DNA from: a virus
Lineage: Duplodnaviria > Caudoviricetes
DNA: 62,174 nucleotides
IMG/VR virus record: IMGVR_UViG_3300026512_000013
Coordinates: 1 to 62,174 of that record
Reading direction: 5' to 3' (one strand)
Shown here: one piece after another, positions 1 through 60,820 of the stretch
How positions within the stretch are numbered: position 1 is the stretch's first letter
Layout: each line of letters starts with the position of its first letter
The notes under the pieces: generated by a model
What the model saw: the letters and a program-made list of their open reading frames with translations, nothing else
Database searches by the model: none
Told to the model about the DNA's origin: nothing
Made by a program: the position numbers and the translations under genes

Positions 1-11
1 TTTTCTCATTC

Positions 12-25
12 TGAACGTATGTTCT
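12..25. promoter_or_regulatory. LexA (Gram-positive SOS) box-like site
   Basis: tGAACgtatGTTCt matches GAAC-N4-GTTC. Confidence 0.4.
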
Positions 26-39
26 ATAATTATAAAATT

Positions 40-150
40 TTAACATTCTATTAAAAATCAATTCTAAGCAACTTTATTATATAGTAATATCAAAATATCA
101 GTATATTATATAAATAGCTTAAAACTCAAATTTAAGCGTTATAATGATAT
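40..150. repeat. ~110-bp quasi-palindromic periodic element, degenerate copy
   Basis: shares gcttaaaactcaaattt..gcgtta with the copy at 252-368. Confidence 0.5.
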
Positions 151-251
151 TTTAATAATATTCTACTATTGATATTTTAAGCTATTAATATCAATTTAAT
201 ATCTATCTAATATCTATCAATCAATTAAATATCAATACATTATAATTGCTA

Positions 252-368
252 TAATAGCGTTTTAACGCCCAAATTTGAGTATATAGCGACTTTTAGCGTT
301 AACTTGATATTATATTCATGTTAGCATTAAAGTTGCTTAAAACTCAAATTTGGGCGTTAAAATTATAT
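252..368. repeat. ~110-bp quasi-palindromic periodic element
   Basis: perfect outer arms ttaacgcccaaatttgagt / actcaaatttgggcgttaa plus imperfect inner arms. Confidence 0.7.
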
Positions 369-382
369 TTTTATTTATTGCA

Positions 383-417
383 ATAAAAAAGCAAGTTAAT
401 TATATTATTAACTCGCT
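383..417 (-). terminator. probable intrinsic terminator
   Basis: imperfect stem agttaat/attaact followed by a T-run on the minus strand, just after ORF 443..988. Confidence 0.55.
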
Positions 418-442
418 CAAGTTGTTGATATTACTTATTTTA

Positions 443-1482: not shown

Positions 1483-1647
1483 TTATATATTTAATAATAT
1501 ATCTAATTTTGAAGTATCGTAATACTGATAACATTCAGTAAAATTATTGTATTCATTTTCTTTAATATCGTTTGATACGTTACTATTAAATACATTGATT
1601 AAATTTTCTAATGCTTGCTCAAATGTTGCGTTTGTTGTTTTTTTCAT
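1483..1647 (-). CDS. small hypothetical early protein (54 aa, MKKTTNATFEQ...LLNI), not in ORF track
   Basis: hand-translated ORF, RBS AAGGATGGT, same leader module as its neighbours. Confidence 0.7.
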   Translation of the reverse strand: MKKTTNATFEQALENLINVFNSNVSNDIKENEYNNFTECYQYYDTSKLDILLNI

Positions 1648-1749
1648 TGTTTTACCATCCTTTTATATTGATATTAACATTGTTATTAATATCTATGTAT
1701 ACACGCTTTAAAGCGTGTTATTTGTTGCGTTTGTTCTATGTTTGATGGT

Positions 1750-1980
1750 TTTCTTATTCAATTTTCAAGGTTCAATTTAAAATTTAATATTTGATAAATC
1801 CTCTGTATTCTATCTATTTTCCCGGTACTTACTAACTAGAGTAAGTATGCTATTTTATCTTATAGATTTATAAGAACCGTTTTAGCGTTACCTGGTATAA
1901 CGTGTGTATAGTTTCAATTTATCAATTATTAAATTTTCAAAGTACAGTATTAAATTTGTTAGGAACGCCACCTCCTAACA
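1750..1980 (-). ncRNA. structured leader/ncRNA with two boxA-like antitermination motifs
   Basis: TGTACTTTGAAAATTTAATA (1927-1946) and TGAACCTTGAAAATTGAATA (1755-1774) flank several hairpins; TTGACG promoter upstream at ~2015. Confidence 0.45.
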
Positions 1981-2001
1981 CTCATAATACTAAACCTCAT
2001 T

Positions 2002-2212
2002 TAAACGTTCGTCAAGTATTTTTTATTATTTTTTTAATTTATTTTAAAAAACTACTAACAAATCTAGCTATATCAACATATTTTTTTTATTTTTATTTTC
2101 AATTTTTTTATTTTTAATTTTCTTCAATTTCTCAATAAATTAAAAACGTTCGTGTTTTAAGGGTAAAATACCTTAAAATTAGATAAAATAAAATTAAACG
2201 TTCGTGTTTTTT
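2002..2212. repeat. three copies of AAACGTTCGT, putative operator
   Basis: copies at ~2003, ~2145 and ~2196; the first overlaps the -35 of the leftward promoter. Confidence 0.55.
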
Positions 2213-2216
2213 AGGG

Positions 2217-2749
2217 TGATAATAATTCTCATTTAAAAATGCCATTTTTAAATTAAAGTAAAAACTTAAAAATACTTTATTTAATAAAGTCAAAATTTTA
2301 AATACTTTATTTAATAAAGTCAAAATTCTATAATTTTATTAATTTTCAGCTATATTTTATGAGAATGATAATCATTATCATAAATTGATTTTAATCAAAA
2401 AAAGTTTCTTCCTTATATAGTAAAAAAAGCGTATTTTACTATATAATAACAAACGTTGATATTTCAACGTTATATCATGTTTTAATTTAATATGATTATA
2501 ATAGTATAAAATACCGTTATTTTACCATTTTTAATTATATTAATGATAATCATTCTCATTAATATAACTATATGATATTGATAATCATTCTCATTAACTT
2601 AAATGATAATAATTCTCATTGATAATAATTCTCATTTGCATATTATTATATTGTTTATACAATTTATATTGTTTATATAATTTCTAATTGATAATTATTC
2701 TCATTGATAATCATTCTCATTACTAAATTGATATTGATAATCATTCTCA
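2217..2749. promoter_or_regulatory. array of 9 Fur-box-like sites
   Basis: TGATAATnATT(C/A)TCA at 2217, 2366, 2544, 2579, 2604, 2620, 2689, 2705, 2735; 2361-2379 GAGAATGATAATCATTATC is 18/19 to the classical Fur box. Confidence 0.8.
2270..2327. repeat. tandem direct repeat (30-bp period) containing near-palindrome ACTTTATTTAATAAAGT
   Basis: aaatactttatttaataaagtcaaaatt occurs twice. Confidence 0.75.
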
Positions 2750-2758
2750 ATTAGAAAG

Positions 2759-3017
2759 TTATTAACATGTTATCAACAACTAAAAAAAGTTATCAACAAT
2801 TTATTGACTTATGCACAATTTTATTATATACTGTGCATAACTTAAAGAAATAAAAGTTATTAACAAGTTATTAACAATTTTATCAACAACTCAAAAAGTT
2901 TACAATAAACTTACAATTGAGTAAGCGTGACTTATTAACAATTTATGTTATAATGTTAATAACGTTATTCACAGTTTATCAACAACTTATTCACAGTTTA
3001 TCAACAGTTTATCAACA
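2759..3017. promoter_or_regulatory. array of ~15 DnaA-box-like 9-mers
   Basis: TTWTNCACA matches at 2809, 2832 (reverse), 2965, 2987; TTATCAACA/TTATTAACA variants elsewhere; five in tandem with 11-bp period at 2965-3017. Confidence 0.8.
2804..2832 (+). promoter_or_regulatory. plus-strand sigma-A promoter overlapped by DnaA boxes
   Basis: TTGACT-17bp-TATACT. Confidence 0.55.
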
Positions 3018-3018
3018 G

Positions 3019-3032
3019 AGAACAAATGTTCG
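3019..3032. promoter_or_regulatory. LexA box
   Basis: AGAACAAATGTTCG vs consensus CGAACRNRYGTTCG. Confidence 0.65.
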
Positions 3033-3085
3033 ATTTTAAGCGAAAATTCTAAATTTTTCAAACTAATGTTTGGTAAACAGAACAG

Positions 3086-3115
3086 TACAAATGTAAACTA
3101 AATTCTATAAATGTA
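3086..3115. promoter_or_regulatory. paired TACAnnTGTA-like boxes (CopY/BlaI/MecI family type)
   Basis: tacaaatgta at 3086 and tataaatgta at 3106; the same 20-bp spacing recurs at 9903/9923. Confidence 0.45.
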
Positions 3116-3185
3116 ATATATAATTTAATTTACAAAAATAAATTTTCAATTACAAAAGAAAATCAAAAAACATTTGAGATTTTTG

Positions 3186-3246
3186 AAATGTGCCGCTGAG
3201 GGACAATATACGTCCCATAGCACGAATTTTCAGATGTGCCGCCTAG
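3186..3246. repeat. GC-rich motif ATGT(G/C)CCGC(TG/CT)AG, two copies; third at 9949-9972
   Basis: aaatgtgccgctgag; cgaattttcagatgtgccgcctag; cgaattttcaaatgtcccgctgag. Confidence 0.7.
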
Positions 3247-3273
3247 ATTACAATGTTTAATTATTATTCTAAT

Positions 3274-3316
3274 TAAAAAAAGACTAATTAAAATTAATTA
3301 ATTAGTCTTTTTTTTA
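3274..3316. terminator. bidirectional intrinsic terminator
   Basis: aaaaaaagactaattaa...ttaattagtctttttttt. Confidence 0.7.
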
Positions 3317-4238
3317 CACCTCTATATTTATTATTTTCTTTTCTACTTAACCAACAACATGTATCTTTTGAATATATTCTTTTACTGTGAGGTAAATTAA
3401 ATTGTAATTTGTCTTTGTCCAAATCTAATTTATTATTTAATATTTTACTTTCATTGTACCCTTCTAATTTAATTATATCTAAAAGATAGTTGTCAAACCT
3501 AAACCAACTTTTATGAACAGTAATTCCCTTTGCACCATAGTTATGAAAATTTTTACTATTTTTATTATAACAACGTATTATCATACCATCCCATCTATCA
3601 TATAATGTATCTTTTAAACTTTGACTAATAGGGATATATTTACTATACCCTTGCGTTTTATTAAAACTAGTATATTTAAGATAATCAGTAAATTTATTAA
3701 GTATAATATCATGAAAATTACAATGCCAAATTGCATTGTTTTTGTGTCCTTTAACTATATAGCAATCCTTTAATCTACTTTTAGCAATTACAGTAACCTT
3801 TTGATTATCTGATTGATAAGTATATCCAACTTTTATATTATCATAATATTTATCTCTAATTTCACCAGTCCATACATGATGTTGTTGTTCTAATTGCTCA
3901 TTTCCACTATTAATAAATTTAATCAAATAATGTTTTCTATTATCATTTTTATTATATTTTATTATTAATCCACTACCTATTAACATAAATTTCCCATATT
4001 GATTAGTATTAAATATTTGTCCTAAATATGCATTTTTAGATATACTAACATCATATACACTTCCCATATTAACTTGTTTACTTCGTGCCCACTTTTTAAA
4101 ATTAGTATTTATAAATTCAATATTATACCCTTTTCTTTTATTTCTTATTTCAAAATTTAATACTTTATATTTACCACAATTATTACTTTCATATATATTA
4201 CCTATTTCAATGTTATACTTTTGATATGTTTCTTTCAT
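3294..4238 (-). CDS. putative HNH-type (His-Me finger) homing endonuclease with repeated N-terminal DNA-binding modules
   Basis: W..M..RCY, YGAKGITV..W..F, LDKD, YSKDTCCW motifs. Confidence 0.75.
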   Translation of the reverse strand: MKETYQKYNIEIGNIYESNNCGKYKVLNFEIRNKRKGYNIEFINTNFKKWARSKQVNMGSVYDVSISKNAYLGQIFNTNQYGKFMLIGSGLIIKYNKNDNRKHYLIKFINSGNEQLEQQHHVWTGEIRDKYYDNIKVGYTYQSDNQKVTVIAKSRLKDCYIVKGHKNNAIWHCNFHDIILNKFTDYLKYTSFNKTQGYSKYIPISQSLKDTLYDRWDGMIIRCYNKNSKNFHNYGAKGITVHKSWFRFDNYLLDIIKLEGYNESKILNNKLDLDKDKLQFNLPHSKRIYSKDTCCWLSRKENNKYRGVKKRLIN

Positions 4239-6634: not shown

Positions 6635-6904
6635 TTATATAAATTTTGTGTAGTCTGTAATATCACACACTATATCAGTTAAACTCATATCAAAATTTAT
6701 ACATATATCATTTAACTTTTTTAAATTTATTGAATAAATACCATTTTTATAATTATGATATGTTTGTTTACTCATGTTATTTAATTCATAAAATTCCTTT
6801 TGATACATACCTTTACCATTTCTAATTTTATCAATTTTTTTAAATATTTCTATTGTCTTAACACATATATTATTATTATTATTATTATTATTCATTTTCA
6901 TCAA
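6635..6904 (-). CDS. XRE/Cro-like helix-turn-helix regulator
   Basis: R..KGM.QKEF...MSKQTY..Y.NG..SINL..L..IC..FDMSL pattern. Confidence 0.75.
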   Translation of the reverse strand: MMKMNNNNNNNNICVKTIEIFKKIDKIRNGKGMYQKEFYELNNMSKQTYHNYKNGIYSINLKKLNDICINFDMSLTDIVCDITDYTKFI

Positions 6905-7497: not shown

Positions 7498-7980
7498 CTA
7501 TTGTTCACACAATAAACCAAAATCAGTCAACCAACTTCCACCATCCATTAATATATCTCTTCCAAAACTCTTATAATTAAAATATCTTTCAGTAGTTTCA
7601 CATAATTCTAAAAATTCTGCATAATATTCACCAACATCATACTCATCATCAATATCATATAATAAATAATAATTTCCAATATTTACCAACTCTTCAGAAC
7701 CATGTATTTCAATTATTGCTTTTACTAAATTTTCATCATCATCACATAATTCATAAATATCAAATAATTCATCAACATTATCATATTCATTAATTTCTAA
7801 ATTTAAATCATTTTCATAATCATGAATAGCAAACTCTTCATTACCATTTTTATTTAACATATTTTGAATTTCCTCTTCAACTTCTGAACTATCTGAGTAA
7901 TTATTAAAATCTAACCATTTCCCTACTAAATTCCCATTGTTATATTCTGCTAAATCTGCTACATAAATTTTAAAGTTCAT
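7498..7980 (-). CDS. ardA: antirestriction protein ArdA (DNA mimic, inhibits type I R-M)
   Basis: IYVADLAEYNNGNLVGKW, EEFAIHDYE, YFNY.SFGRD motifs; very acidic. Confidence 0.9.
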   Translation of the reverse strand: MNFKIYVADLAEYNNGNLVGKWLDFNNYSDSSEVEEEIQNMLNKNGNEEFAIHDYENDLNLEINEYDNVDELFDIYELCDDDENLVKAIIEIHGSEELVNIGNYYLLYDIDDEYDVGEYYAEFLELCETTERYFNYKSFGRDILMDGGSWLTDFGLLCEQ

Positions 7981-9040: not shown

Positions 9041-9358
9041 TTATTTTGAATAATTATTTAATAAATTTTCAACTCTAATTATATTCGCTTGAATATTTGT
9101 TAATATAAAATCATATTCAAATTTATTCACTTTTGCAATTTCTCTTTCATACCCTTTTACGGTTTTAGTATCATTTGCTTTTGTTAATATTGTAAATAAA
9201 TTTTTAACACCTTTTGAAAAATAAATACTTATATCATTTCTTTCTTCTTCATTAATTATTTTTTTTTCTAATAACTCAGACAATTTCATTTCTAAATTAG
9301 ATACTTTTTCACTTTTTAAAATTGTTAATGTTTTTTCTACCATTTGATTTTTAGTCAT
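9041..9358 (-). CDS. hypothetical protein, first gene of early cluster
   Basis: 105 aa, promoter TTGACT-17-TATACT at ~9407-9435. Confidence 0.8.
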   Translation of the reverse strand: MTKNQMVEKTLTILKSEKVSNLEMKLSELLEKKIINEEERNDISIYFSKGVKNLFTILTKANDTKTVKGYEREIAKVNKFEYDFILTNIQANIIRVENLLNNYSK

Positions 9359-9473
9359 TTTAATTACTTCCTTTCAATAGTTTATGTATTCCCTTTGATT
9401 AATTACAGTATATCACATTGATATTATAAGTCAAGTTTTTTAATATTTATTTTTAGTTTATTCTCATTAATTT

Positions 9474-9546
9474 TTTCTCTTCCTTTATATAAGATAATTA
9501 TAACGCTATTTTTACATTAATTATATACTATATAAGGAAGAGAAAA
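9474..9546. repeat. inverted repeat with TCTTCCTTATATAGTA motif shared with 2407-2422
   Basis: ttttctcttcctt...aaggaagagaaaa; 9526-9541 is the exact reverse complement of 2407-2422. Confidence 0.7.
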
Positions 9547-9597
9547 ATTATTTTGATTTCATTACCAACTATCAACTGAAAATAATTAAAATAATGT

Positions 9598-9626
9598 TTG
9601 CAATTTAATTAAACTTATGATATACT
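9598..9626 (+). promoter_or_regulatory. plus-strand sigma-A promoter into non-coding DNA
   Basis: TTGCAA-17bp-TATACT with extended -10 TG. Confidence 0.55.
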
Positions 9627-9811
9627 GTATTTAAGTTAAAGAAGTAAAGAAAAGAAATAGAGAAGTAAAGAAATTAAAATTAAAATTAAAATTAAAATTA
9701 AATAAAAAAATAAGTTAAAAAATGATACTAATATAATTTAGTTGGAAAAATTCCACCTCGATAACCACTATCAACGCAAACAATATGGGGAGTATATTTT
9801 TTTGGACTTAT

Positions 9812-9889
9812 CGAACATAGTTTATTAATTTTAAAAAAGAGAACAATTGTTCGGAAAACTTCTGTTCTATATTATCGAACACTTGTTTT
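9812..9889. promoter_or_regulatory. cluster of LexA-box-like sites
   Basis: AGAACAATTGTTCG at 9840; weaker copies at 9812, 9855, 9876. Confidence 0.6.
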
Positions 9890-10017
9890 GTATTATAAAA
9901 ATTACGAATGTAAAATTAAGATTACAAATGAGAAAAAAGTTACTGAAACGAATTTTCAAATGTCCCGCTGAGCTATGACAATCTGGCGACACTGTCTTGC
10001 CGACATAGATTTACATT

Positions 10018-10052
10018 AAACTATTATAATTAAATTATAATAGTTTTTTTAT
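10018..10052 (+). terminator. plus-strand intrinsic terminator
   Basis: aaactattataat/attataatagttt followed by a T-run on +. Confidence 0.55.
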
Positions 10053-10084
10053 TGTCTACAATTAATAACATATAGTATTTTATA

Positions 10085-10115
10085 ATAAAAAAAAGAGTGA
10101 TTATTAATCACTCTT
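10085..10115 (-). terminator. intrinsic terminator
   Basis: aagagtgatt/aatcactctt plus T-run on minus. Confidence 0.75.
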
Positions 10116-10144
10116 AATTTATTTACTTTATTATATTTTATTAT

Positions 10145-10528
10145 TTATCTACTTATTGTAAAGCTATCTTTTAATGTTAAATCATCATAATATATATTTA
10201 CTAATATTTTTGTTGAAGTTAAATTAATAACTGATACATCTCCATTAATATAACAGAAATACTCGTCTGTTTTCTTTCCATTCATAAATCCTGTAACCTT
10301 ATAACCATAGTTCTCAATTTTATTTTCAATAGTCCTATTTAAACTTATAGTTTGTGTTGATGTCGATGTATTAGATGATACATTATTTCTATTGTCATTA
10401 TCGCTACTTAGATGTGCTATTAATAGTGAGAATAATAATAATATTATCACTATAGCAAGAGTTATACTCCCATCACTTTCTATTCTTTTATTATTATTAT
10501 TGTTAATAGTATTAATATTATTTTCCAT
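10145..10528 (-). CDS. membrane-anchored hypothetical protein
   Basis: one TM helix followed by S/T/N-rich linker. Confidence 0.8.
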   Translation of the reverse strand: MENNINTINNNNNKRIESDGSITLAIVIILLLFSLLIAHLSSDNDNRNNVSSNTSTSTQTISLNRTIENKIENYGYKVTGFMNGKKTDEYFCYINGDVSVINLTSTKILVNIYYDDLTLKDSFTISR

Positions 10529-12406: not shown

Positions 12407-13575
12407 TCAATCTGTAATTTCAACTTCATAATTATACATAGCTCTATATAATTTTTCTGGAATATCTTTTTTATAATAGTCTGCTACTTTTTTAATATAT
12501 TTTTCTTTATATTCTTTATAAGCATTAAAAGCTAATTTAGGAGTTGAATAATATCCTATAAATCTATGCCCCAATATATCAGTAGGTAAAGATAGAGTGT
12601 TATACTGAGTGACAAAAGATTTTTTTTCTTTATCATAAGTTACTCCTATTGGGAATTTACCTCTTGCATCTTTTCGTGTTACAAATAAATTATTTATGTT
12701 ACTAGGAACAATTATACAAGTTTCAGGGGAGTATAATTTATTTCCTTTTACTAAAATGTCTTTATCTAATGACATTTTTTTGCCTTCTATTTGATAATAA
12801 TTTTCATCATACCAATCTCCAAATACTTGAAAATTATGCCACTCTTCACAAACTGTGGTATTTTTATATGAAGGATTTTTTTCTTTAAATAATTGGTTAT
12901 ACCCTCTTTCTATCATTCCACTCCAAGTTCCATAACACTTTAAAATTTTCCCTCCTTTTCTTGATACATGCTTCCCTTGCCCTAAATACCCTACTCCATG
13001 AACAGAACGTTGATAAGGATTTTTAACTTGTTTTGATATAAAACTTGAATAAGATGTTTCAACAACACCTTTATGTTCATCTTGGAATTCTATAATAATT
13101 CTCGTTGAATTTATACATTTAATTATTTTCATAGGAACACCTTTATTAGAAATTACGATTTTACCAATTTTTGATTCAATTGATGATTTTATCGCTATTT
13201 TTCTTGTTGAAGGTTTATGTGGACTTTCTACATTTCCTTTTTTAAAGTTTTCATATGTTACTCTAACCATAGTGTTATAACCATCATAAATTTTTACTAA
13301 AATATTATGACAATTTTCATATTTAATAATTTCAATTTTACAACCTTGTTTTGACATTCCTGTTTTGCCAACTCTAATAGCAGAAGTAGGGTTGGCAACG
13401 CTTCCACTTTTAAATCGGTCATAACGTGTTTTAACTATAAATTTATTTTTATCTTGAAATTCTACTATTACTTTATTAGCTCCATATACTCGACAATTTT
13501 CATTATATCGCCTTGATTATTAGTCTCTACTTCTCCAGTTCTTTCTTCTTTCTTTTCCTTTAAATCAGCTCTCAT
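12407..13575 (-). pseudogene. HNH-type homing endonuclease, frameshifted near the 5' end
   Basis: RBS+ATG at 13575 (MRADLKEKK...MKIVEY); frame break at ~13485; resumes GANKVIVEFQD and joins ORF 12407..13357 (W..M..R, CEEWHNFQ.F, LDKD, YSPETC). Confidence 0.7.
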
Positions 13576-20610: not shown

Positions 20611-21759
20611 TTAAATTGTATTAGGAAATTCAGTGTTAGTTTTATTCAATGTTATTATATTTGAAAGGTTTTCAATATAGCTAAATTCCCACCCTTTATA
20701 ATCTTTCTTCCCAGCAAGTAATATCCGACTAAGTTTCTTAGGCTTTATTATTCCAAAACGATTAATAAATTTTTGAATACTGTAAGAATAGTAAACATTA
20801 CCTTCAGGAGAAATTGCTTTAAATATTGTTTTTTTATTTGTCCATATAGAATTAATTAATTTAATTTTTAATTCTCCACTATAGTTTAAAAATGATGTTT
20901 TACTTGGAGTAACAGGGATATACATATCTTTAATACCAATAAATTGATTTTCAATATTATATGGAGTTATTCCTTTTGGGAAAATATCTACATATTCACA
21001 ATACCAACCATAGTATAAATGTTCTTTACTTCTTTTTAAGCCATTTTCTATACCTTTCCGAGTCATAAAGTCTAATTTTTTTGCCATATCTGTTAAATTA
21101 AAATGATAATATATAAGTTCTCCATCTGGAGATGTGAGTTTAAATAGTTTTTGTTTATGAGGTTGATACATATAGTTTTTAGTCCCACTTGTCCACATGC
21201 AATCATCCCTACTATATATATCATTATGTTGAGTATAATTCTTATAGTCTTTATCTAAAGAAATTTCATTCTTATAAAATTTTTCTTTATCCCAATTAGG
21301 CAACTCTTGTATGTCATTTAGAAAATATTCAAAGCGATGCCATCTCTCATCTACTGTAATGCCTAAAGCACCATAAGTATTATATTTCTTATCATTTTTA
21401 TTATAACATCTATTAATCATTCTTTCCCAAAAAGAATATTCTTTCTCATAATTAGCAATTACATTTTTTACATACCCTATATACCCTATATTTCCCACAT
21501 TTGGTTTTAGATAATCTTTAATATTACATCCATCTCTAGGGTGTGTTCTCATGGAAGTTTTATACCCTGTTTTAATAAATTCAATATTATAAATAAATCT
21601 CCCCTTATCATTTTTTCTTTTGTCTACAATTTTAAATCTCCCTGATTCACAAGATTCATAAATGTTTCCAATTTTTACAAAATTTCTTTTATTACTCATA
21701 ATTTGTGTTCCCCTTTCATTCCCTATTAATAACTTCACTATGGGAACAGTATACCACAC
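20611..21759 (-). CDS. HNH-type homing endonuclease with C-terminal NUMOD-like repeats (start probably ~21699)
   Basis: W.RMINRCY, YGALGITV.ERW..F, LDKD, YSRDDC; repeated SP.G...Y...GW modules; directly downstream of nrdD. Confidence 0.75.
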   Translation of the reverse strand: MWYTVPIVKLLIGNERGTQIMSNKRNFVKIGNIYESCESGRFKIVDKRKNDKGRFIYNIEFIKTGYKTSMRTHPRDGCNIKDYLKPNVGNIGYIGYVKNVIANYEKEYSFWERMINRCYNKNDKKYNTYGALGITVDERWHRFEYFLNDIQELPNWDKEKFYKNEISLDKDYKNYTQHNDIYSRDDCMWTSGTKNYMYQPHKQKLFKLTSPDGELIYYHFNLTDMAKKLDFMTRKGIENGLKRSKEHLYYGWYCEYVDIFPKGITPYNIENQFIGIKDMYIPVTPSKTSFLNYSGELKIKLINSIWTNKKTIFKAISPEGNVYYSYSIQKFINRFGIIKPKKLSRILLAGKKDYKGWEFSYIENLSNIITLNKTNTEFPNTI

Positions 21760-52798: not shown

Positions 52799-53365
52799 TT
52801 ATTTAGTAAAAACCCCACGACTTCCGTCACCGTTTTTCAAAAAATGGTAGCCAAGCGAAAGAAACAGAGCATCTGAGCCATATGTATCCTCTGCATCTGT
52901 AGGGTCTCTGAATAATCTAAACCCTATTATATCACCTATATTTATATTAGTACCATCAATAACTTGAAACTCTACTACTTTATGAACTCTATCTTCATCA
53001 TCGGTAGAGTCTACTGCATCTAATGTTACAACAGTTGTTGGAGCATTATCTACACTAAATATACTGTATTCTAATTGCCATTTAACATCGCCTGCGTTAG
53101 CATTATCAGCACACCAATGAATATGAGGTCTTAAATCTGAACCCACAAAATAACTATGTGGTATCTCAAAACTTCCACTCATTTCTTCTGTTGTCGATGC
53201 TCCATTAAAACCATACACATCAATATTACCGATTAAAGTTTTCTTATCTGGTCTAGCAGTCCCACCTTGAATAGTATAAGGTAATAGTATAATATCGTCC
53301 CATACTGTGTCGGAATGAAAACCTTTATCCAAGTCTACACCTGTTGTTACTGTTTCATAACTCAT
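52799..53365 (-). CDS. putative virion fibre/decoration protein
   Basis: N-terminal MSY..VTTG.DLD; WDD, PH.Y..GS...PHIHW, V.WQLEY, LFRD....DTY..DA. Confidence 0.6.
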   Translation of the reverse strand: MSYETVTTGVDLDKGFHSDTVWDDIILLPYTIQGGTARPDKKTLIGNIDVYGFNGASTTEEMSGSFEIPHSYFVGSDLRPHIHWCADNANAGDVKWQLEYSIFSVDNAPTTVVTLDAVDSTDDEDRVHKVVEFQVIDGTNINIGDIIGFRLFRDPTDAEDTYGSDALFLSLGYHFLKNGDGSRGVFTK

Positions 53366-54561
53366 TCTACCGCCTCCAATTTTATAATTCTTTCATTTTT
53401 TATTCTTTCCATATTTTCAAAATTACTATATTCACACCATCCAATTTTAGTCCCTCTTCTTAAATATTTTTTTATAGTTTCAGGATGTAAATTATAACAT
53501 GTTGATAGTGCTGACACAGATTTTCCACTTTTAAAATCTATCGATATATCTTTAACTACTCCTTTTTGGGAATCAGAATAAACTCTAATCCAATCTACTC
53601 TTTCCATATGAAAATGCTGTTTTAAAGATTTTATACACTGGTTTTTAATGTATTCAAAATTTGTTTTTTTTAAATTAATAATAATATAATTGTTCTTTTT
53701 TATATTATTATTTATAGCTAAATCAAATTTTATTTTATCATTTTCTTTAATCTTTTCAAGTGTCCACTTACCCCACCCAACACTTCTATTATAATGTATA
53801 CATCCATGAGCTTCAATTATAATATTTTTTTCTGGAATATAAAAATCATATCTTTTACTTTTAGCCCATTCTGGAGAATATTCTCTCTCATACGTAATTT
53901 TAATTTGATTTAATACATTCTTAACAATGTTTTCAGACATATATGTTGCATCCCCACAAATTGGACAATTATAACCGTATAAATATAAAGAGTAAATTGG
54001 TTTCACTTCCTCAAACCCGCAAATTGGGCAAATTACATTAACCTTATGTTTTGAATGGCATGTATAGCTAAATGCCTCATTTTTATTTTTAAAATATTGA
54101 ATTAAATCTTTTCTATTTTCCCCTACACTACCTCTTTTGTTCACAATATTTTTAATGCGACTATTTACAATACTTTCCATTGTACATATATCACATCCAA
54201 GTATACTTTTCTGAGATAAACGAGTCCAACTAATTTTAAAATAATGATTATGTTTTTTACAAAAGAATGTTAAAAGTGAATGAGTATTAATATACGTACT
54301 TTTATTAAACATTAATTTTAAGTCACTATTATGAATAATTAAATACCTTTGTATATTATATAGAACATATTTATTTGAATTATAAAATGGCTTCGAAACA
54401 CCACTTTTCTTTAATTTTTTTATTGTGACTCTTAAAATATACCCATTAACATCATAACAATATATAGGGGCAATTCTATTTTTAATTGATTCCCCTTTTA
54501 TTAATGAAAGGTTATTTTCCTTTAACATTCTTAAATAATTATCTCTTAATTTTTTATTCAC
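53362..54561 (-). CDS. free-standing endonuclease (zinc ribbons plus Vsr/DUF559-like PD-(D/E)XK domain plus HTH)
   Basis: CPICG repeats; SE, RYDFYIP...IEAHG..HY...ND..K. Confidence 0.75.
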   Translation of the reverse strand: MNKKLRDNYLRMLKENNLSLIKGESIKNRIAPIYCYDVNGYILRVTIKKLKKSGVSKPFYNSNKYVLYNIQRYLIIHNSDLKLMFNKSTYINTHSLLTFFCKKHNHYFKISWTRLSQKSILGCDICTMESIVNSRIKNIVNKRGSVGENRKDLIQYFKNKNEAFSYTCHSKHKVNVICPICGFEEVKPIYSLYLYGYNCPICGDATYMSENIVKNVLNQIKITYEREYSPEWAKSKRYDFYIPEKNIIIEAHGCIHYNRSVGWGKWTLEKIKENDKIKFDLAINNNIKKNNYIIINLKKTNFEYIKNQCIKSLKQHFHMERVDWIRVYSDSQKGVVKDISIDFKSGKSVSALSTCYNLHPETIKKYLRRGTKIGWCEYSNFENMERIKNERIIKLEAVE

Positions 54562-59106: not shown

Positions 59107-59838
59107 TTATTCACTTAATCTATCTATCATAGCCCAAAATACATAAGGCTCAATAGTTTCATTTTTTAAATTTTCTATATGCTCTTCTGGATTATTTAAA
59201 AAACCTTTTTTAGCTAAATTATTAATTGATTTTACAGCTAAATTATTTTTCCAATTATCTTTATCATTATCTTCTTTTTTATTATTTAATTTAATATTTA
59301 CAAAATCTTTAACTTGTTGTTTAAATTCAATAAATTTATCTTCATAAATGACAAAATATTTATGACAATTTTTACCTGTAATATCAAAATGCCTTATAAC
59401 ATCTTCTATTGGGTTTAAATTATACTCAATACATAAATCAGATACTCTATCAATCAAAGTTAAATAAGTATCTAAACTCATAAATCCTTCATCTGTAGTA
59501 TGAGTACACTCAATAGAATAAATACTATCATTAGGGTATTTACCTAACTCTTCAGCTAATCCACTTTCATTATAATAATAATCATTATTAGCACAACCAT
59601 ATGATATTTCATTATCTGGAATAATAACCCATACATCACCCGATAAATCAATAATTTCTTGACTGCTTCCGTATCCTGTCTTACCATTCTTTCTATTTTC
59701 AAAAAATTGTCTATTTTGCTTAGCTGTAGTATTACTATTACCTACCCAATGTATTACTAACTTTTTAATTTCCTTTAACTCTATTTGAGGTCTACTATAT
59801 TTATTTGGAGTTAAATAATCCGTTATTATTTTATACAT
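59107..59838 (-). CDS. endolysin, N-acetylmuramoyl-L-alanine amidase (Amidase_2)
   Basis: LVIHWVGN, SIE, IRHFDITGKNC. Confidence 0.85.
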   Translation of the reverse strand: MYKIITDYLTPNKYSRPQIELKEIKKLVIHWVGNSNTTAKQNRQFFENRKNGKTGYGSSQEIIDLSGDVWVIIPDNEISYGCANNDYYYNESGLAEELGKYPNDSIYSIECTHTTDEGFMSLDTYLTLIDRVSDLCIEYNLNPIEDVIRHFDITGKNCHKYFVIYEDKFIEFKQQVKDFVNIKLNNKKEDNDKDNWKNNLAVKSINNLAKKGFLNNPEEHIENLKNETIEPYVFWAMIDRLSE

Positions 59839-59872
59839 AATATTACTCTCCTTTTAATTTAGTAACTATTTA

Positions 59873-60820
59873 CTATTTACTATTTATTATCTCTAATAAA
59901 GCTTCATATACATTATTAGCTAAAGCAACACTTTCAGCTCTTGTAATAGTATTATTAGGCTTAAAACTTCCATCTGGATAACCATTAACTAAACCTCTTT
60001 GTACAGCTTTTTCAACTTCTTCTTCAATCCAACTATTTTTCTCAATATCAGTAAAAATTTTAACTTCCTCCTTAGTTTTCTCTGGGATACTATCCATAAC
60101 TCCCCAACTTTCCATAATAGGATAATCATAAGCTAAAGTAGCTCTGCCATCAATGCCCCATTCTTCTCCCCAACTATTTTGAAATATAAATCCATTATTA
60201 TCCCAACCAACTAATAATATCATATGTCCGCCATATTTTTTAACCCCACCATTATGAGCAATATTATTCTCTAAATGATAAAATTTCTCAGTGACCATGA
60301 CTCCAATTGGAACAGGTCTATTTTCTAATAATACTCTTTTAATTTCGTCTATAGTATATAATCTAACATAAGACTTAATAACTTGTTCTTTAGCTTGAGT
60401 ATAAATACTAACTTGTTCATCAGAATTTAATTTATCAAATTCACTTTTGATATAATCATAATCACCTAAATGATTAAATAACTCTAAATTAGGAGTGCCT
60501 CCGCCTTTTAACACTTGTAAAGCTTTTCTAGGTATCATACCCTCTCCGCCTGATATATGTCCTAACATAAAAATATAAGCTGGTGAATATAATTGATATT
60601 TACCTCTTTCAATAAACTCTTGATACTCTTTCATTTTAGCTAATGTAAAAGCTACACACATTCCTGTAGCACCTTGATTACCAACTTTAGGTAAATTAGG
60701 TATAATATACTCTTTAGGTAACTCTATATCGTCTAATTGATATTGAGCTAAACAATAGTCTCTCTTATCATACTCAGATTTACTGTAACCTAATGGTAAT
60801 ACTTTGTTTAATTCTTCCAT
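59873..60820 (-). CDS. papain-like (C1) cysteine peptidase with C-terminal SLH domain
   Basis: QG..GMCVAF, GGH, QNSWG; F.DI...W...GLVNGYPDGSFKPN..ITRAE. Confidence 0.85.
   Translation of the reverse strand: MEELNKVLPLGYSKSEYDKRDYCLAQYQLDDIELPKEYIIPNLPKVGNQGATGMCVAFTLAKMKEYQEFIERGKYQLYSPAYIFMLGHISGGEGMIPRKALQVLKGGGTPNLELFNHLGDYDYIKSEFDKLNSDEQVSIYTQAKEQVIKSYVRLYTIDEIKRVLLENRPVPIGVMVTEKFYHLENNIAHNGGVKKYGGHMILLVGWDNNGFIFQNSWGEEWGIDGRATLAYDYPIMESWGVMDSIPEKTKEEVKIFTDIEKNSWIEEEVEKAVQRGLVNGYPDGSFKPNNTITRAESVALANNVYEALLEIINSK

What the first reader, a model, noticed from the sequence alone, without database searches (positions are those of the whole stretch)
2000..3260. Gene-free 1.2-kb collage of host regulator binding sites: a candidate phage-borne DNA sponge for Fur, DnaA and LexA
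Seen: ordered, non-overlapping arrays of distinct motifs. These are AAACGTTCGT x3, ACTTTATTTAATAAAGT x2, nine Fur-type 7-1-7 boxes (2217-2749), about 15 DnaA-type boxes (2759-3017), a WalR/OmpR-like TTACA-N6-TTACA repeat (2899-2915), a LexA box (3019) and two TACAnnTGTA boxes (3086, 3106). No credible ORF lies here. Established: these match consensus sites of abundant Firmicute DNA-binding proteins, and multicopy sites can titrate them (Fur titration assay, datA/DnaA-box clusters). Inference: the copy number far exceeds what one promoter needs. The block may act as protein-free host takeover that scales with phage DNA copy number. Alternatively it could be a landing pad whose bound host proteins ratchet or protect the incoming genome.
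Basis: partly seen in the sequence, partly recalled or inferred. Interest (0 to 1): 0.88.

Follow-up and report, generated by a model that had tools for sequence, protein, structure and literature searches.

The report
Phage DNA pad for host regulators
A 1.65-kb gene-free stretch of a large phage genome is packed with ordered binding-site arrays for three bacterial regulators (LexA, DnaA, Fur), the same three site types in the same order that I find at the still unexplained DNA-injection stop region of phage T5.

Summary
Window 1648-3293 is the largest gene-free gap of a 62-kb fragment of a roughly 140-kb SPbeta-like phage with 25% G+C. It holds 9 Fur-type 7-1-7 boxes, against 0.01 expected. 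It also holds 15 DnaA-type 9-mers, against 1.4 expected, many phased at 11 bp, and one Cheo (LexA) box abutting a promoter-like site. Nested palindromes and operator-like repeats are present too.

The Fur-type tandem recurs beside iron-uptake genes in 9 of 9 bacterial loci. Phased DnaA-box triplets occur in at least 119 viral contigs of 22-67% G+C. Host proteins are therefore the likely ligands, not a phage-specific protein.

The closest known thing is Repeat Region 3 of phage T5, which carries the injection stop signal. There I find terminator, then SOS box, then DnaA boxes, then Fur-like repeats. This is the same order and polarity as here, with the LexA box of the Gram-negative type.

No close relative, genome end or expression data could be obtained. 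The function remains inference.

The parts
1648..3293 (.). Whole gene-free region, the largest gap in the window (18-24% G+C)
   Evidence: ORF lists. No PHROG hit for the internal small ORFs. No Rfam hit at gathering score or at E up to 1.
3294..4238 (-). Upstream gene: HNH (homing-type) endonuclease, 314 aa
   Evidence: phrog_2081, E 1.2e-37
3275..3314 (.). Perfect 17-bp inverted repeat flanked by an A-run and a T-run. It looks like a two-way terminator that ends the HNH gene.
   Evidence: the repeat finder I23, 100% complementary. Dominant hairpin in the RNA fold.
3178..3242 (+). Two 19-nt direct repeats (3178-3196 and 3224-3242) flanking the G+C-rich hairpin 3200-3216. A third copy of the repeat lies at 9951 in the second gap.
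   Evidence: (D16)
3086..3116 (+). Two TAYAAATGTAA repeats 20 bp apart
   Evidence: Four such sites in the window, two of them here.
3033..3061 (-). Promoter-like site reading leftward (TTGAAA, 17 nt, TAAAAT). Its -10 element abuts the LexA-type box.
   Evidence: consensus scan, 10 of 12; sequence
3019..3032 (.). Cheo/LexA-type box AGAACAAATGTTCG, 13 of 14 to the recalled consensus. A weaker second box lies at 3059-3072.
2759..3017 (+). Array of 15 DnaA-type 9-mers, 13 on the + strand, in runs phased at 11 bp
2804..2840 (+). Rightward promoter-like site P1 (TTGACT, 17 nt, TATACT) bracketed by inverted TTATGCACA boxes at 2809 and 2832
   Evidence: repeat D18
2927..2962 (+). Rightward promoter-like site P2 (GTGACT, 16 nt, TG-extended TATAAT) bracketed by inverted TTATTAACA boxes at 2932 and 2954. 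It is a paralogue of P1.
2217..2749 (+). Nine Fur-type 7-1-7 boxes. Two adjacent pairs are spaced at 16 bp (2604/2620 and 2689/2705).
2356..2597 (.). 240-bp imperfect palindrome with inner hairpins. Fur-type boxes sit on both arms.
   Evidence: the repeat finder I1, I4, I6. ssDNA fold z = -8.3, with 0 of 200 shuffles as stable.
2646..2681 (+). 18-bp tandem repeat, 2 copies, between the Fur-box clusters
   Evidence: D14
2262..2323 (-). 30-bp tandem repeat with two 8-1-8 palindromes (2274-2290 and 2304-2320). These lie in the spacer of a leftward promoter-like site (TTGACT, 17 nt, TAAAAT) and look like an operator for a dimeric phage regulator.
   Evidence: (D11)
2003..2205 (+). Three AAACGTTCGT boxes (2003, 2144, 2196). 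The first overlaps the -35 element of a leftward promoter-like site at 2015-1987. An A+T tract spans 2014-2140.
   Evidence: (D19, D20)
1483..1647 (-). First gene downstream (54 aa, no family), followed by very acidic small ORFs at 1091-1399 and 443-988
9359..10144 (.). Second gene-free gap. It holds a module of about 200 bp that is 65% identical to 2990-3200. The module has the Cheo box at 9840-9853, a weaker box at 9876, a TACAAATG repeat, the G+C-rich repeat at 9951, and a +-strand hairpin followed by a T-run near 10019-10055. It carries no DnaA- or Fur-type arrays.

Best explanation
The region is a cis-acting docking platform for abundant host DNA-binding proteins. It is of the same kind as the untranslated Repeat Region 3 (injection stop region) of phage T5.

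Read in the direction in which all genes of this phage run (right to left), the parts follow in this order:
1. The terminator of the upstream gene.
2. A LexA (SOS) box pressed against a promoter.
3. 15 DnaA-type boxes, many one helical turn apart.
4. 9 Fur-type boxes set in nested palindromes.
5. Promoters with phage-type operators in front of the next block of small acidic early-type genes.

I infer that host DnaA oligomerises on the phased boxes and that Fur polymerises on the tandem boxes. Together with LexA they would coat about 800 bp of phage DNA. This nucleoprotein block would act on the phage's own DNA as a gate between two early gene blocks. It would stop whatever travels along the DNA from the right until host state or phage proteins clear it.

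Within this reading I put about 60% on a barrier or insulator for read-through transcription from the LexA-controlled promoter. I put about 40% on a pause or anchor for the entering genome, as at the T5 stop signal. Titration of the three regulators would be a by-product that grows with phage copy number.

Shown: the arrays, their enrichment, orientation and phasing; that the motif types occur at true Fur operators and in many unrelated phages; and the parallel with T5. Inferred: binding by host proteins and every functional consequence.
For: 1. The arrays are real and far above chance.

2. The ligands are probably host proteins.
- The tandem Fur-type pair occurs in 9 bacterial loci from two phyla. 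In the 4 loci whose neighbours I scanned, they are Peripla_BP_2, FecCD, ABC_tran, IucA_IucC/FhuF or solute-binding proteins. The other 5 (Pelagibacter type) show the same 342-aa binding-protein gene by eye.
- DnaA-type triplets at 11-bp phase occur in at least 119 viral contigs of 22-67% G+C.
- No FUR or Bac_DnaA_C domain is encoded in the window.
- All 3 of 3 GAAC-N4-GTTC sites lie in the roughly 7% of the window that is gene-free.

3. The T5 parallel.
- A Fur-array region of an unrelated viral contig hits, by blastn, the T5 left terminal repeat at the feature annotated as the injection stop signal.
- T5 reads: terminators, then an exact SOS-type palindrome at 9332, then 4 DnaA-type boxes at 9358-9439, then Fur-like direct repeat C at 9468-9637. 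The exact window unit TGATAATGATTCTCA sits at 9579.
- In the whole T5 genome the Fur-type pattern within 1 mismatch occurs only in the terminal repeats.
- Order and strand polarity equal those of the window's minus strand. By my count of arrangement classes, chance would give this about 1 time in 12.
- The LexA box is of the Gram-negative type in T5 and of the Cheo type here, as expected if each phage uses its host's LexA.
- The box variants here (TTATCAACA, TTATTAACA, TTATTCACA, TTATGCACA) are the ones listed for T5-like phages in section 3.3.3 of the Davison preprint 10.1101/866236.

4. Context fits an early or leading region: an ArdA anti-restriction gene at 7498-7980, an XRE regulator at 6635-6904, and small acidic ORFs on both sides.

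5. The region has nested palindromes, as the preprint describes for T5.
Against: - No protein binding, expression or genome-end data exist for this phage.
- No relative close enough to test conservation was found. Distant relatives (SPbeta, G002, G003) lack such clusters.
- In T5 itself the role of the DnaA boxes in the injection stop is only a preprint hypothesis.
- The LexA-like and Fur-like parts vary among the T5-like phages I checked. The SOS box is exact in 3 of 5 and has one mismatch in 2 of 5. Fur-like boxes within 2 mismatches after the DnaA boxes occur in 2 of 5. One (Vibrio VCPH) has a different repeat there.
- No homologue of T5 A1, A2 or dmp is present in the window. Only about 44% of the genome is held.
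- None of the 15 DnaA-type boxes is the perfect consensus, and 11 of 15 fall outside TTATNCACA.
- Promoter calls rest on consensus scans in 80% A+T DNA: 32 found against 21.1 +/- 4.9 in shuffles.
- Same-strand arrays could simply reflect tandem duplication.
- Viral contigs with Fur arrays mostly lack DnaA or LexA boxes (0 of 18 loci). DnaA arrays mostly lack Fur boxes (1 of 119 loci). The full three-part combination is therefore rare.
Confidence: 0.45

Rival explanations
1. Trans-acting sponge. As phage DNA multiplies, the arrays soak up Fur, DnaA and LexA. This would derepress iron uptake and SOS genes and starve the host origin of DnaA.
For: - Site numbers (9 and 15) exceed what a promoter needs.
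- Multicopy Fur sites do derepress the Fur regulon. The Fur titration assay is described in the introduction of PMC2189734 (passages seen).
- Per-cell arithmetic from recalled protein abundances makes titration feasible at 100 or more genome copies.
- This window has the largest Fur-type array that I saw. The other viral arrays have 3-8 boxes.
Against: - A sponge needs no fixed order, common orientation, helical phasing, overlap with promoters or nested palindromes. All of these are present.
- The same order recurs in T5, where the region matters at a single copy, before replication (preprint text).
- At one copy, 9 sites cannot titrate thousands of Fur molecules. At late times a lytic host is already lost.
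- There is only one strong LexA box here.
- The idea was not tested.
Confidence: 0.15
2. Phage replication origin that recruits host DnaA. Phased DnaA boxes, internal promoters, palindromes and A+T tracts would open the DNA and load the phage DnaB-like helicase. Fur and LexA would modulate firing.
For: - 11-bp phased same-strand boxes resemble low-affinity DnaA arrays of chromosomal origins (recalled).
- Two promoter-like sites lie inside the array.
- There is an A+T tract at 2014-2140 and a palindrome with z = -8.3.
- Viral contig L278 combines 14 copies of a 31-bp repeat, a Fur box and 4 DnaA boxes, much like a plasmid-type origin.
- The window encodes helicase, primase and polymerase, but I recognised no initiator.
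Against: - The cumulative GC skew shows no turn at the region.
- The A+T tract is 620 bp from the DnaA-type array, with the Fur array in between.
- No rep, dnaA or dnaN gene is adjacent.
- According to the preprint, the T5 origins lie near the centre of the molecule, not at these boxes.
- Among 150 scanned ORFs flanking DnaA-box arrays in viral contigs, the commonest families were terminase subunits (8 small; 7 and 6 in the two commonest large-subunit families). Replication initiation had 3 and helicase 4.
- SPbeta and two distant relatives have no DnaA-box cluster.
Confidence: 0.15
3. Purely transcriptional multi-input control region. Tandem early or decision promoters would each be repressed by a different regulator (LexA, DnaA, Fur, phage repressors). 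Downstream genes would then respond to DNA damage, replication status and iron, with no role in DNA entry or replication.
For: - The LexA-type box abuts the -10 of a leftward promoter-like site.
- Palindromic operators lie in a promoter spacer at 2262-2323.
- Boxes bracket P1 and P2.
- A paralogous SOS-box module lies in a second gap.
- An XRE regulator gene lies nearby.
- In the L039/L077/L120 contig family a single Fur box overlaps a gene start downstream of a DnaA-box array.
Against: - Nine and fifteen sites spread over 800 bp is far beyond known operator designs.
- Most boxes do not overlap a credible promoter.
- In the L016/L049 phage group the Fur boxes lie 100-400 bp upstream of the nearest promoter-like site and do not overlap it.
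- The promoter predictions are weak.
Confidence: 0.15
4. Iterons for phage-encoded proteins (a partition site, copy control or a phage repressor). They would only resemble Fur and DnaA boxes because the DNA is A+T-rich.
For: - Directly repeated same-strand units are typical of iterons and centromere-like sites.
- All 8 exact Fur-type units share the same off-consensus C and a TT tail.
- 11 of 15 DnaA-type boxes miss the relaxed consensus.
- 56% of the genome is unseen and could encode the binder.
Against: - The identical 17-mer occurs in arrays in unrelated phages of 33-54% G+C, in T5, and at bacterial iron-uptake promoters.
- The same DnaA-type variants occur in T5-like phages.
- No par or rep gene is adjacent.
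- The LexA-type box changes with host type while the other two motif types stay the same.
Confidence: 0.1

Closest known systems
Phage T5 Repeat Region 3 / injection stop signal (iss) in the left terminal repeat
   Same: - It is a 1.2-kb untranslated, repeat- and palindrome-dense region downstream of terminators (preprint passages).
- It holds DnaA and variant DnaA boxes of the same sequence types.
- By my own reading it also holds an SOS-type palindrome before the DnaA boxes and Fur-like repeats after them. Order and strand polarity match this window.
   Different: - There is no sequence homology and no A1, A2 or dmp homologues.
- T5 has 4 DnaA-type boxes in pairs 3 bp apart and 1-2 strong Fur-like boxes. 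This window has 15 and 9.
- The LexA box is of the Gram-negative type in T5 and of the Cheo type here.
- Whether this region lies in a terminal repeat, or whether this phage enters in two steps, is unknown.
- In the preprint, the words LexA, SOS, Fur and iron do not occur.
Bacterial Fur operators, and the Fur titration assay
   Same: The unit is within 1 mismatch of the recalled 7-1-7 Fur box. The 16-bp-spaced tandem is found beside iron-uptake genes in Pelagibacter, Ammoniphilus, Fictibacillus and Macrococcus loci. Multicopy Fur sites are known to titrate Fur (PMC2189734 introduction).
   Different: There are nine boxes over 530 bp with no iron gene nearby. The boxes lie in phage DNA, and most do not overlap a promoter.
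Chromosomal DnaA-box clusters (oriC low-affinity arrays, datA, Bacillus DnaA-box clusters; recalled)
   Same: Same-strand 9-mers separated by 2 bp, which is the geometry that favours DnaA oligomers.
   Different: There is no perfect box, no flanking dnaA or dnaN, no adjacent unwinding element and no skew turn.
DnaA-box arrays near the ends of other phage genomes (found here)
   Same: Phased TTATCCACA-type arrays lie in non-coding DNA of T7-like Berlinvirus A7 (bases 21-150, beside the large terminase gene), of Klebsiella podoviruses, of Enterobacter phage phiEap-1, of Microviridae and at the end of an Arthrobacter phage record.
   Different: Those arrays use mostly the perfect consensus and have no Fur boxes. 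Only 1 of 119 viral-contig arrays has a Fur-type box within 500 bp. The position of the present region relative to the genome ends is unknown.
Iteron origins and partition sites of plasmids and plasmid-prophages (recalled)
   Same: Arrays of directly repeated protein-binding units with DnaA boxes and palindromes. L278 is a possible example.
   Different: No initiator or partition gene is adjacent. The units match host-regulator consensus sites found in unrelated replicons.

Membership tests
T5-type injection stop region (Repeat Region 3) | Large untranslated, repeat- and palindrome-dense region downstream of terminators at the edge of an early gene block | tested here: met
   1.65-kb gap, terminator at 3275-3314, 20 direct-repeat families and 85 inverted pairs
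T5-type injection stop region (Repeat Region 3) | Cluster of DnaA and variant DnaA boxes | tested here: met
   15 boxes of the same variant types as listed for T5-like phages. The arrangement differs: 11-bp runs here, pairs 3 bp apart in T5.
T5-type injection stop region (Repeat Region 3) | Sequence homology to the conserved IRD'-spacer-IRC' and direct-repeat cluster | tested here: not met
   No blastn match of 1700-3400 to 50,697 phage records. The T5 core itself matches 541 records.
T5-type injection stop region (Repeat Region 3) | Pre-early A1 and A2 proteins that restart transfer | tested here: not met
   tblastn of T5 dmp, A1, A2 and five other ORFs gives a best E of 2.0. phrog_1745 (the A1 family; positive control on T5) finds nothing in the window. 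Only about 44% of the genome is held.
T5-type injection stop region (Repeat Region 3) | Position inside a long terminal repeat, about 8% from the entering end; entry stops there | not testable with these tools
   The record is a linear fragment.
Fur operator | 7-1-7 inverted repeat close to the consensus (recalled motif) | tested here: met
   1 perfect box and 8 with one mismatch. Shuffles give 0.01.
Fur operator | The same site type controls iron genes in bacteria | tested here: met
   9 of 9 genome loci with the tandem pattern lie beside iron-uptake genes. Pfam confirmed this for 6 proteins from 4 loci.
Fur operator | Bound by the host's Fur | not testable with these tools
   The host is unknown. 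An SLH-domain peptidase and 25% G+C point to a low-G+C SLH-bearing bacterium.
DnaA-dependent origin (oriC type) | DnaA boxes matching TT(A/T)TNCACA | tested here: inconclusive
   4 of 15 match, 10 of 15 are within one mismatch of TTATCCACA, and none is perfect.
DnaA-dependent origin (oriC type) | Adjacent unwinding element, flanking dnaA/dnaN or initiator gene, and a strand-skew turn | tested here: not met
   The A+T tract is 620 bp away. There is no Bac_DnaA_C domain. The cumulative skew is monotonic.
LexA (Cheo-type) operator | GAAC-N4-GTTC palindrome at a promoter | tested here: met
   The box at 3019-3032 matches 13 of 14 and abuts the -10 of the site at 3061-3033. All 3 such sites in the window lie in gene-free gaps.
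WalR/OmpR-type direct repeat | TGTWAH-N5-TGTWAH (recalled motif) | tested here: not met
   2 matches in the window against 1.73 expected. The claimed site at 2899-2915 does not match.
Trans-acting titration locus (datA-like or FURTA-like) | Multicopy carriage changes host regulon expression or replication initiation | not testable with these tools
   This needs wet experiments.
Iteron origin / partition site | Iterons next to the gene of their binding protein (Rep, ParB/ParR/TubR) | tested here: not met
   The neighbouring ORFs are an HNH endonuclease and small acidic proteins without any family.

The most novel reading that the evidence does not exclude
This region and the T5 injection stop signal would be the same kind of device. 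It would be a brake or anchor built from sites for three host proteins, LexA, then DnaA, then Fur. It would hold the entering phage genome, or its first transcription wave, at the end of the host-takeover block until the host's state or phage proteins release it.

This would mean three things. Stepwise genome entry would exist outside the T5 family, here in a phage with an SPbeta-like replication module and a Cheo-type LexA box. The long-sought ligands of the T5 stop signal would be ordinary host regulators. And arrays of host-regulator sites would be a general, overlooked class of protein-free phage elements.
Probability: 0.17. Interest if true: 0.9.

Novelty: new variant of a known kind. Interest (0 to 1): 0.75.

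Why it matters
What stops T5 DNA after 8% has entered has been open for decades. The only proposal in the papers I could search invokes DnaA.

The same ordered set of LexA, DnaA and Fur sites appears in an unrelated phage, with the LexA site switched to the other host type. This turns the question into a comparative and directly testable one. The tests are first-step transfer and pre-early expression of T5 in fur, lexA and dnaA hosts, and footprints on the region.

More broadly, the session shows that arrays of host-regulator sites recur in non-coding DNA of many unrelated phages. DnaA-box triplets occur in at least 119 viral contigs. Fur-box arrays occur in 7 unrelated groups. Annotation pipelines ignore such protein-free elements. 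They may couple phage development to host replication status, iron and DNA damage, or they may manipulate these pathways.

Tried and rejected
Relatives.
- blastn of the region and of 20 kb of the window against GenBank phages gave no match.
- Protein-seeded scans with the 181-aa downstream ORF found nothing in viral contigs or metagenome contigs.
- The polymerase found only 32-36% relatives in viral contigs. It found one 78% relative on a 12.7-kb metagenome contig that does not reach the region.
- Distant relatives (SPbeta, G002, G003) have no Fur or DnaA clusters. The large gaps of G003 hold small ORFs, not arrays.
- A scan for the G+C-rich repeat of the SOS module hit only a coding region of an unrelated contig, which I take as chance.

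RNA.
- Rfam gave nothing at gathering score for the whole window. It gave nothing at E up to 1 for 1600-3400 or 9300-10200.
- No tRNA was found.
- The fold of 3066-3320 has z = -5.1, mostly from the terminator hairpin. The fold of 9884-10060 has z = -1.9.
- A coding reading of the G+C-rich repeat is rejected. Its two copies in 3174-3260 fall in different frames (and the sequence).

Sequencing runs.
- No RNA holder is listed.
- Besides the possible source run (a hydrothermal-vent metagenome), one marine-sediment study holds the stretch (X2 0.66 and X3 0.48 of the words).

Other points.
- WalR is rejected.
- Literature searches found no paper on phage Fur-box arrays or decoys. None combined DnaA boxes, phage genome and titration, or DnaA box, terminase and cos site. 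None combined 'first-step transfer' and Fur. One unrelated paper matched phage T5, LexA and terminal repeat.
- Older subscription papers on T5 (1987, 2005) are not in the library, so these T5 features may be in print there.
- The supplements of the Davison preprint were not seen. They may list box conservation in more phages.
- The orientation match with T5 is weak evidence. Other composites (the L039/L077/L120 family) have other orientations.
- The enrichment of terminase genes beside DnaA arrays is only suggestive. Families were counted per protein, not per locus. Only 150 of 170 flanking ORFs of at least 100 aa were scanned (198 ORFs of at least 80 aa in all).


Full report
SETTING. The window is a complete IMG/VR virus record of 62,174 bp. 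It is classed as linear and about 44% complete, with about 25% G+C. Of 70 ORFs of at least 90 aa, 67 lie on the minus strand. The 3 plus-strand ORFs overlap longer minus-strand ones.

The replication block is arranged as in Bacillus phage SPbeta. It has a Sak4-like ATPase, a DnaB-like helicase, a primase, a RecJ-like nuclease and a YorL-type polymerase that is 33% identical to SPbeta's. The window also encodes an anaerobic ribonucleotide reductase, a ligase, a Xer-like tyrosine recombinase, four HNH endonucleases, an amidase endolysin and an SLH-domain peptidase. The host is unknown. The SLH domain and the low G+C point to a low-G+C, SLH-bearing bacterium.

The finding lies in the largest gene-free gap, 1648-3293. 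On its right is an HNH endonuclease gene that ends in a perfect two-way terminator hairpin (3275-3314). On its left is a run of small, very acidic ORFs without any family. An ArdA anti-restriction gene (7498-7980) and an XRE-type regulator (6635-6904) lie a few kb upstream in the direction of transcription. The setting therefore looks like an early, host-takeover type block.

THE OBSERVATION.
- Eight exact copies of TGATAATNATTCTCA lie on the plus strand and one perfect palindromic box lies at 2366. That makes nine sites within one mismatch of the recalled Fur 7-1-7 consensus. Dinucleotide shuffles give 0.01.
- Fifteen TTATNNACA boxes lie at 2759-3017, thirteen on the plus strand, with six 11-bp steps. 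Shuffles give 1.39.
- A Cheo-type LexA box lies at 3019-3032.
- The three AAACGTTCGT boxes and the two 8-1-8 palindromes occur nowhere else in the window.

The corrections are minor. The gap is 1.65 kb. One of the two 'TACA' boxes is really TATA. The WalR-like repeat is at chance level. None of the DnaA-type boxes is the perfect consensus. The small ORFs inside the gap have no family, and no known RNA family matches.

HOST SITES OR PHAGE ITERONS? Four lines of evidence favour host proteins.

1. I searched one genome per bacterial species for the 16-bp-spaced tandem of the Fur-type unit and got nine loci. Six are of the Pelagibacter type. The other three are from Ammoniphilus, Fictibacillus and Macrococcus. 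All sit beside iron-acquisition genes. Pfam confirmed Peripla_BP_2, FecCD, ABC_tran, IucA_IucC with FhuF, and a solute-binding protein for the six proteins I scanned from four loci. The remaining Pelagibacter loci show the same 342-aa binding-protein gene by eye. Several of these true operators carry the same off-consensus C as the phage unit.

Their G+C ranges from 22 to 67%, and 241 of the 360 boxes are TTATCCACA. A motif kept across such a range of composition is most simply the site of the universal DnaA protein.

3. The window encodes no FUR or DnaA DNA-binding domain. More than half of the genome is unseen, however.

4. All three GAAC-N4-GTTC sites of the window lie in gene-free gaps. 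These gaps make up about 7% of the window.

Arrays of three or more same-strand Fur-type boxes are rare but recurrent in viral contigs. There are 18 loci in 7 unrelated groups, with 3-8 boxes each. In one complete 41-kb genome the array straddles the contig ends. In its relatives it lies upstream of the terminase-portal operon. Klebsiella phage KP13-26 has three such boxes in an 800-bp gap.

THE T5 LINK. I used the Fur-array region of one of those unrelated contigs as a blastn query against GenBank phages. It hit the left terminal repeat of phage T5, at the features annotated as 'injection stop signal' and 'direct repeat C'.

Reading that T5 stretch gives this order:
1. Two terminators.
2. An exact SOS-type palindrome, CTGTATAAATATACAG, at 9332.
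3. Four DnaA-type boxes at 9358-9439.
4. Four copies of direct repeat C at 9468-9637. These are Fur-like and include the exact window unit at 9579.
5. The major nick and nine copies of another repeat.

In the whole T5 genome the Fur-type pattern within one mismatch occurs only in the terminal repeats, at 233, 9579 and their right-end copies. The approximate shear point that defines the first-step DNA, 9618 according to the Davison preprint (passages), falls between the two best Fur-like boxes.

The preprint (abstract, section 3.3.3 and searched passages) describes this 1.2-kb untranslated Repeat Region 3 as conserved among T5-like phages. It lists TTATCAACA and TTATTAACA as the commonest variant boxes, which are the two commonest boxes in my window. 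It proposes membrane-bound DnaA as the brake. The words LexA, SOS, Fur and iron do not occur in it.

Read on its minus strand, which is the direction of all genes, the window shows the same sequence of elements. It runs terminator, LexA box, DnaA-type boxes (as TGTNNATAA), then Fur-type boxes (as TGAGAATNATTATCA). Order and polarity agree. By my count of arrangement classes this has a chance of about 1 in 12. The LexA box is of the Gram-negative type in T5 and of the Cheo type here.

LIMITS OF THE PARALLEL.
- Among five T5-like phages, DnaA-type boxes are present in all five.
- The SOS palindrome is exact in three (T5, Erwinia KEY, Vibrio VCPH) and has one mismatch in two (TrudiGerster, Kpn02).
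- Fur-like boxes within two mismatches follow the DnaA boxes in only two (T5, KEY).
- TrudiGerster and Kpn02 keep repeats that share a 13-nt core with the window unit. VCPH has a different repeat at that place.
- A distant T5-like viral contig, L118, has an A1-family protein (E 1e-130, with a positive control on T5). It also combines DnaA, SOS and Fur boxes.
- The window has no A1, A2 or dmp homologue and no sequence homology to T5.
- Most viral Fur arrays lack DnaA or LexA boxes (0 of 18 loci). Most DnaA arrays lack Fur boxes (1 of 119 loci).
- Cheo-type boxes interleaved with DnaA boxes occur in 10 loci of 5 groups.
- One contig, L278, combines a Fur box, DnaA boxes and 14 copies of a 31-bp repeat.

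The full three-part combination is therefore uncommon. I call the present region analogous to the T5 region, not a member of its family.

FINE STRUCTURE.
- A leftward promoter-like site at 3061-3033 has its -10 directly against the LexA-type box. Transcripts from it would have to cross both arrays to reach the next ORF at 1647.
- Three further leftward promoter-like sites follow: 2467-2438, at the centre of the 240-bp palindrome; 2323-2295, with the 8-1-8 palindromes in its spacer; and 2015-1987, with an AAACGTTCGT box over its -35.
- Two paralogous rightward promoter-like sites, P1 at 2804 and P2 at 2927, lie inside the DnaA-type array. Each is bracketed by inverted boxes. They point at the two-way terminator.
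- A module of about 200 bp runs from the LexA-type box to a G+C-rich repeat. It is duplicated at 65% identity in a second gap, 9359-10144, again followed by a plus-strand terminator hairpin. It may be an SOS-controlled small transcript.

All promoter calls are consensus matches in very A+T-rich DNA, 32 sites against 21.1 +/- 4.9 in shuffles. They are leads only.

INTERPRETATION. The ordered, oriented and phased layout, the overlap with promoter-like sites, the nested palindromes (ssDNA fold z = -8.3) and the T5 precedent argue for a cis-acting nucleoprotein platform (0.45). Either a transcription barrier or an entry pause would fit it.

The sponge (0.15) cannot be excluded and may be a side effect. 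It explains none of the architecture.

An origin (0.15) is possible but lacks an adjacent unwinding element, an initiator gene or a skew turn. The preprint places the T5 origins elsewhere. ORFs flanking DnaA arrays in other viral contigs are more often packaging genes than replication genes (counts per protein).

A purely transcriptional control region (0.15) and phage-protein iterons (0.10) remain possible.

WHAT COULD NOT BE DONE. No close relative with the region was found. The genome ends are unknown. Supplements and older subscription papers on T5 could not be read, so the SOS-like and Fur-like character of the T5 repeats may already be in print there.

Noticed in passing
window 9359-10144: This is a second gene-free gap. 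It holds a paralogue (65% identity over about 160-200 bp) of the module at 2990-3200. The module has a Cheo-type box at 9840, a weaker box at 9876, a TACAAATG repeat, a G+C-rich repeat at 9951 and a plus-strand terminator hairpin. A strong plus-strand promoter-like site (TTGCAA, 17 nt, TG-extended TATACT) lies near 9598-9630. It may be an SOS-controlled small transcript opposite to all the genes.
   Followed up: partly
window 1-442: The left end of the record is also gene-free. A GAAC-N4-GTTC box at 13-24 lies directly before a perfect TATAAT, and a motif of about 20 nt (AAACTCAAATTTRRGCGTTA) is repeated.
   Followed up: no
phage T5 AY587007 9330-9640 (L286) and 6137, 233: The T5 injection stop region contains an exact SOS-type palindrome and Fur-like direct repeats flanking its known DnaA boxes. 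A second SOS-type palindrome lies in Repeat Region 2. A perfect Fur-type box lies 233 bp from the left end. None of this is mentioned in the preprint I could read.
   Followed up: partly
viral-contig loci L039, L160-L277; GenBank hits H16-H42: Head-to-tail DnaA-box triplets at 11-bp phase occur in at least 119 viral contigs (22-67% G+C). They also occur in named phages: T7-like Berlinvirus A7, Klebsiella podoviruses, phiEap-1, P483, Microviridae, Proteus PM135 and Arthrobacter BillyTP. They are mostly in unannotated DNA and are often at record ends or beside terminase genes.
   Followed up: partly
viral-contig loci L016, L049, L092, L299-L313; Klebsiella phage KP13-26 (L287 2700-2790): Arrays of 3-8 same-strand Fur-type boxes occur in 7 unrelated groups of viral contigs. 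In a complete 41-kb genome (G005) the array straddles the contig ends. In its relatives it lies upstream of small zinc-finger ORFs, the large terminase and the portal gene.
   Followed up: partly
L278 1300-1860: A 69.6-kb viral contig has about 14 copies of a 31-bp tandem repeat. These are followed by a perfect Fur box, two forward and two reverse DnaA-type boxes, and then a promoter-like site. It looks like a plasmid-type origin.
   Followed up: no
L288-L297: Cheo-type GAAC-N4-GTTC boxes are interleaved with perfect DnaA boxes in repeated units of about 43 bp. This is seen in 10 viral-contig loci of 5 unrelated groups (34-59% G+C).
   Followed up: no
L039, L077, L120, L118: In one contig family a single Fur-type box overlaps the first codons of a gene (reading ATGAGAATCATTATCATG) about 300 bp downstream of an array of 8-9 DnaA boxes. 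L118, a distant T5-like contig with an A1-family gene, shows the same gene start.
   Followed up: partly
window 3294-4238, 12407-13357, 20611-21759, 53362-54561: Four HNH (homing-type) endonuclease genes are scattered through the fragment. One of them directly abuts the region.
   Followed up: no
window 59107-60820: An Amidase_2 endolysin lies next to a papain-family peptidase with an SLH domain. This is a clue that the host has an SLH-anchored cell envelope.
   Followed up: no
L280: A 12.7-kb metagenome contig encodes a polymerase 78% identical to the window's. It is the only close relative found, and it is too short to reach the region.
   Followed up: no
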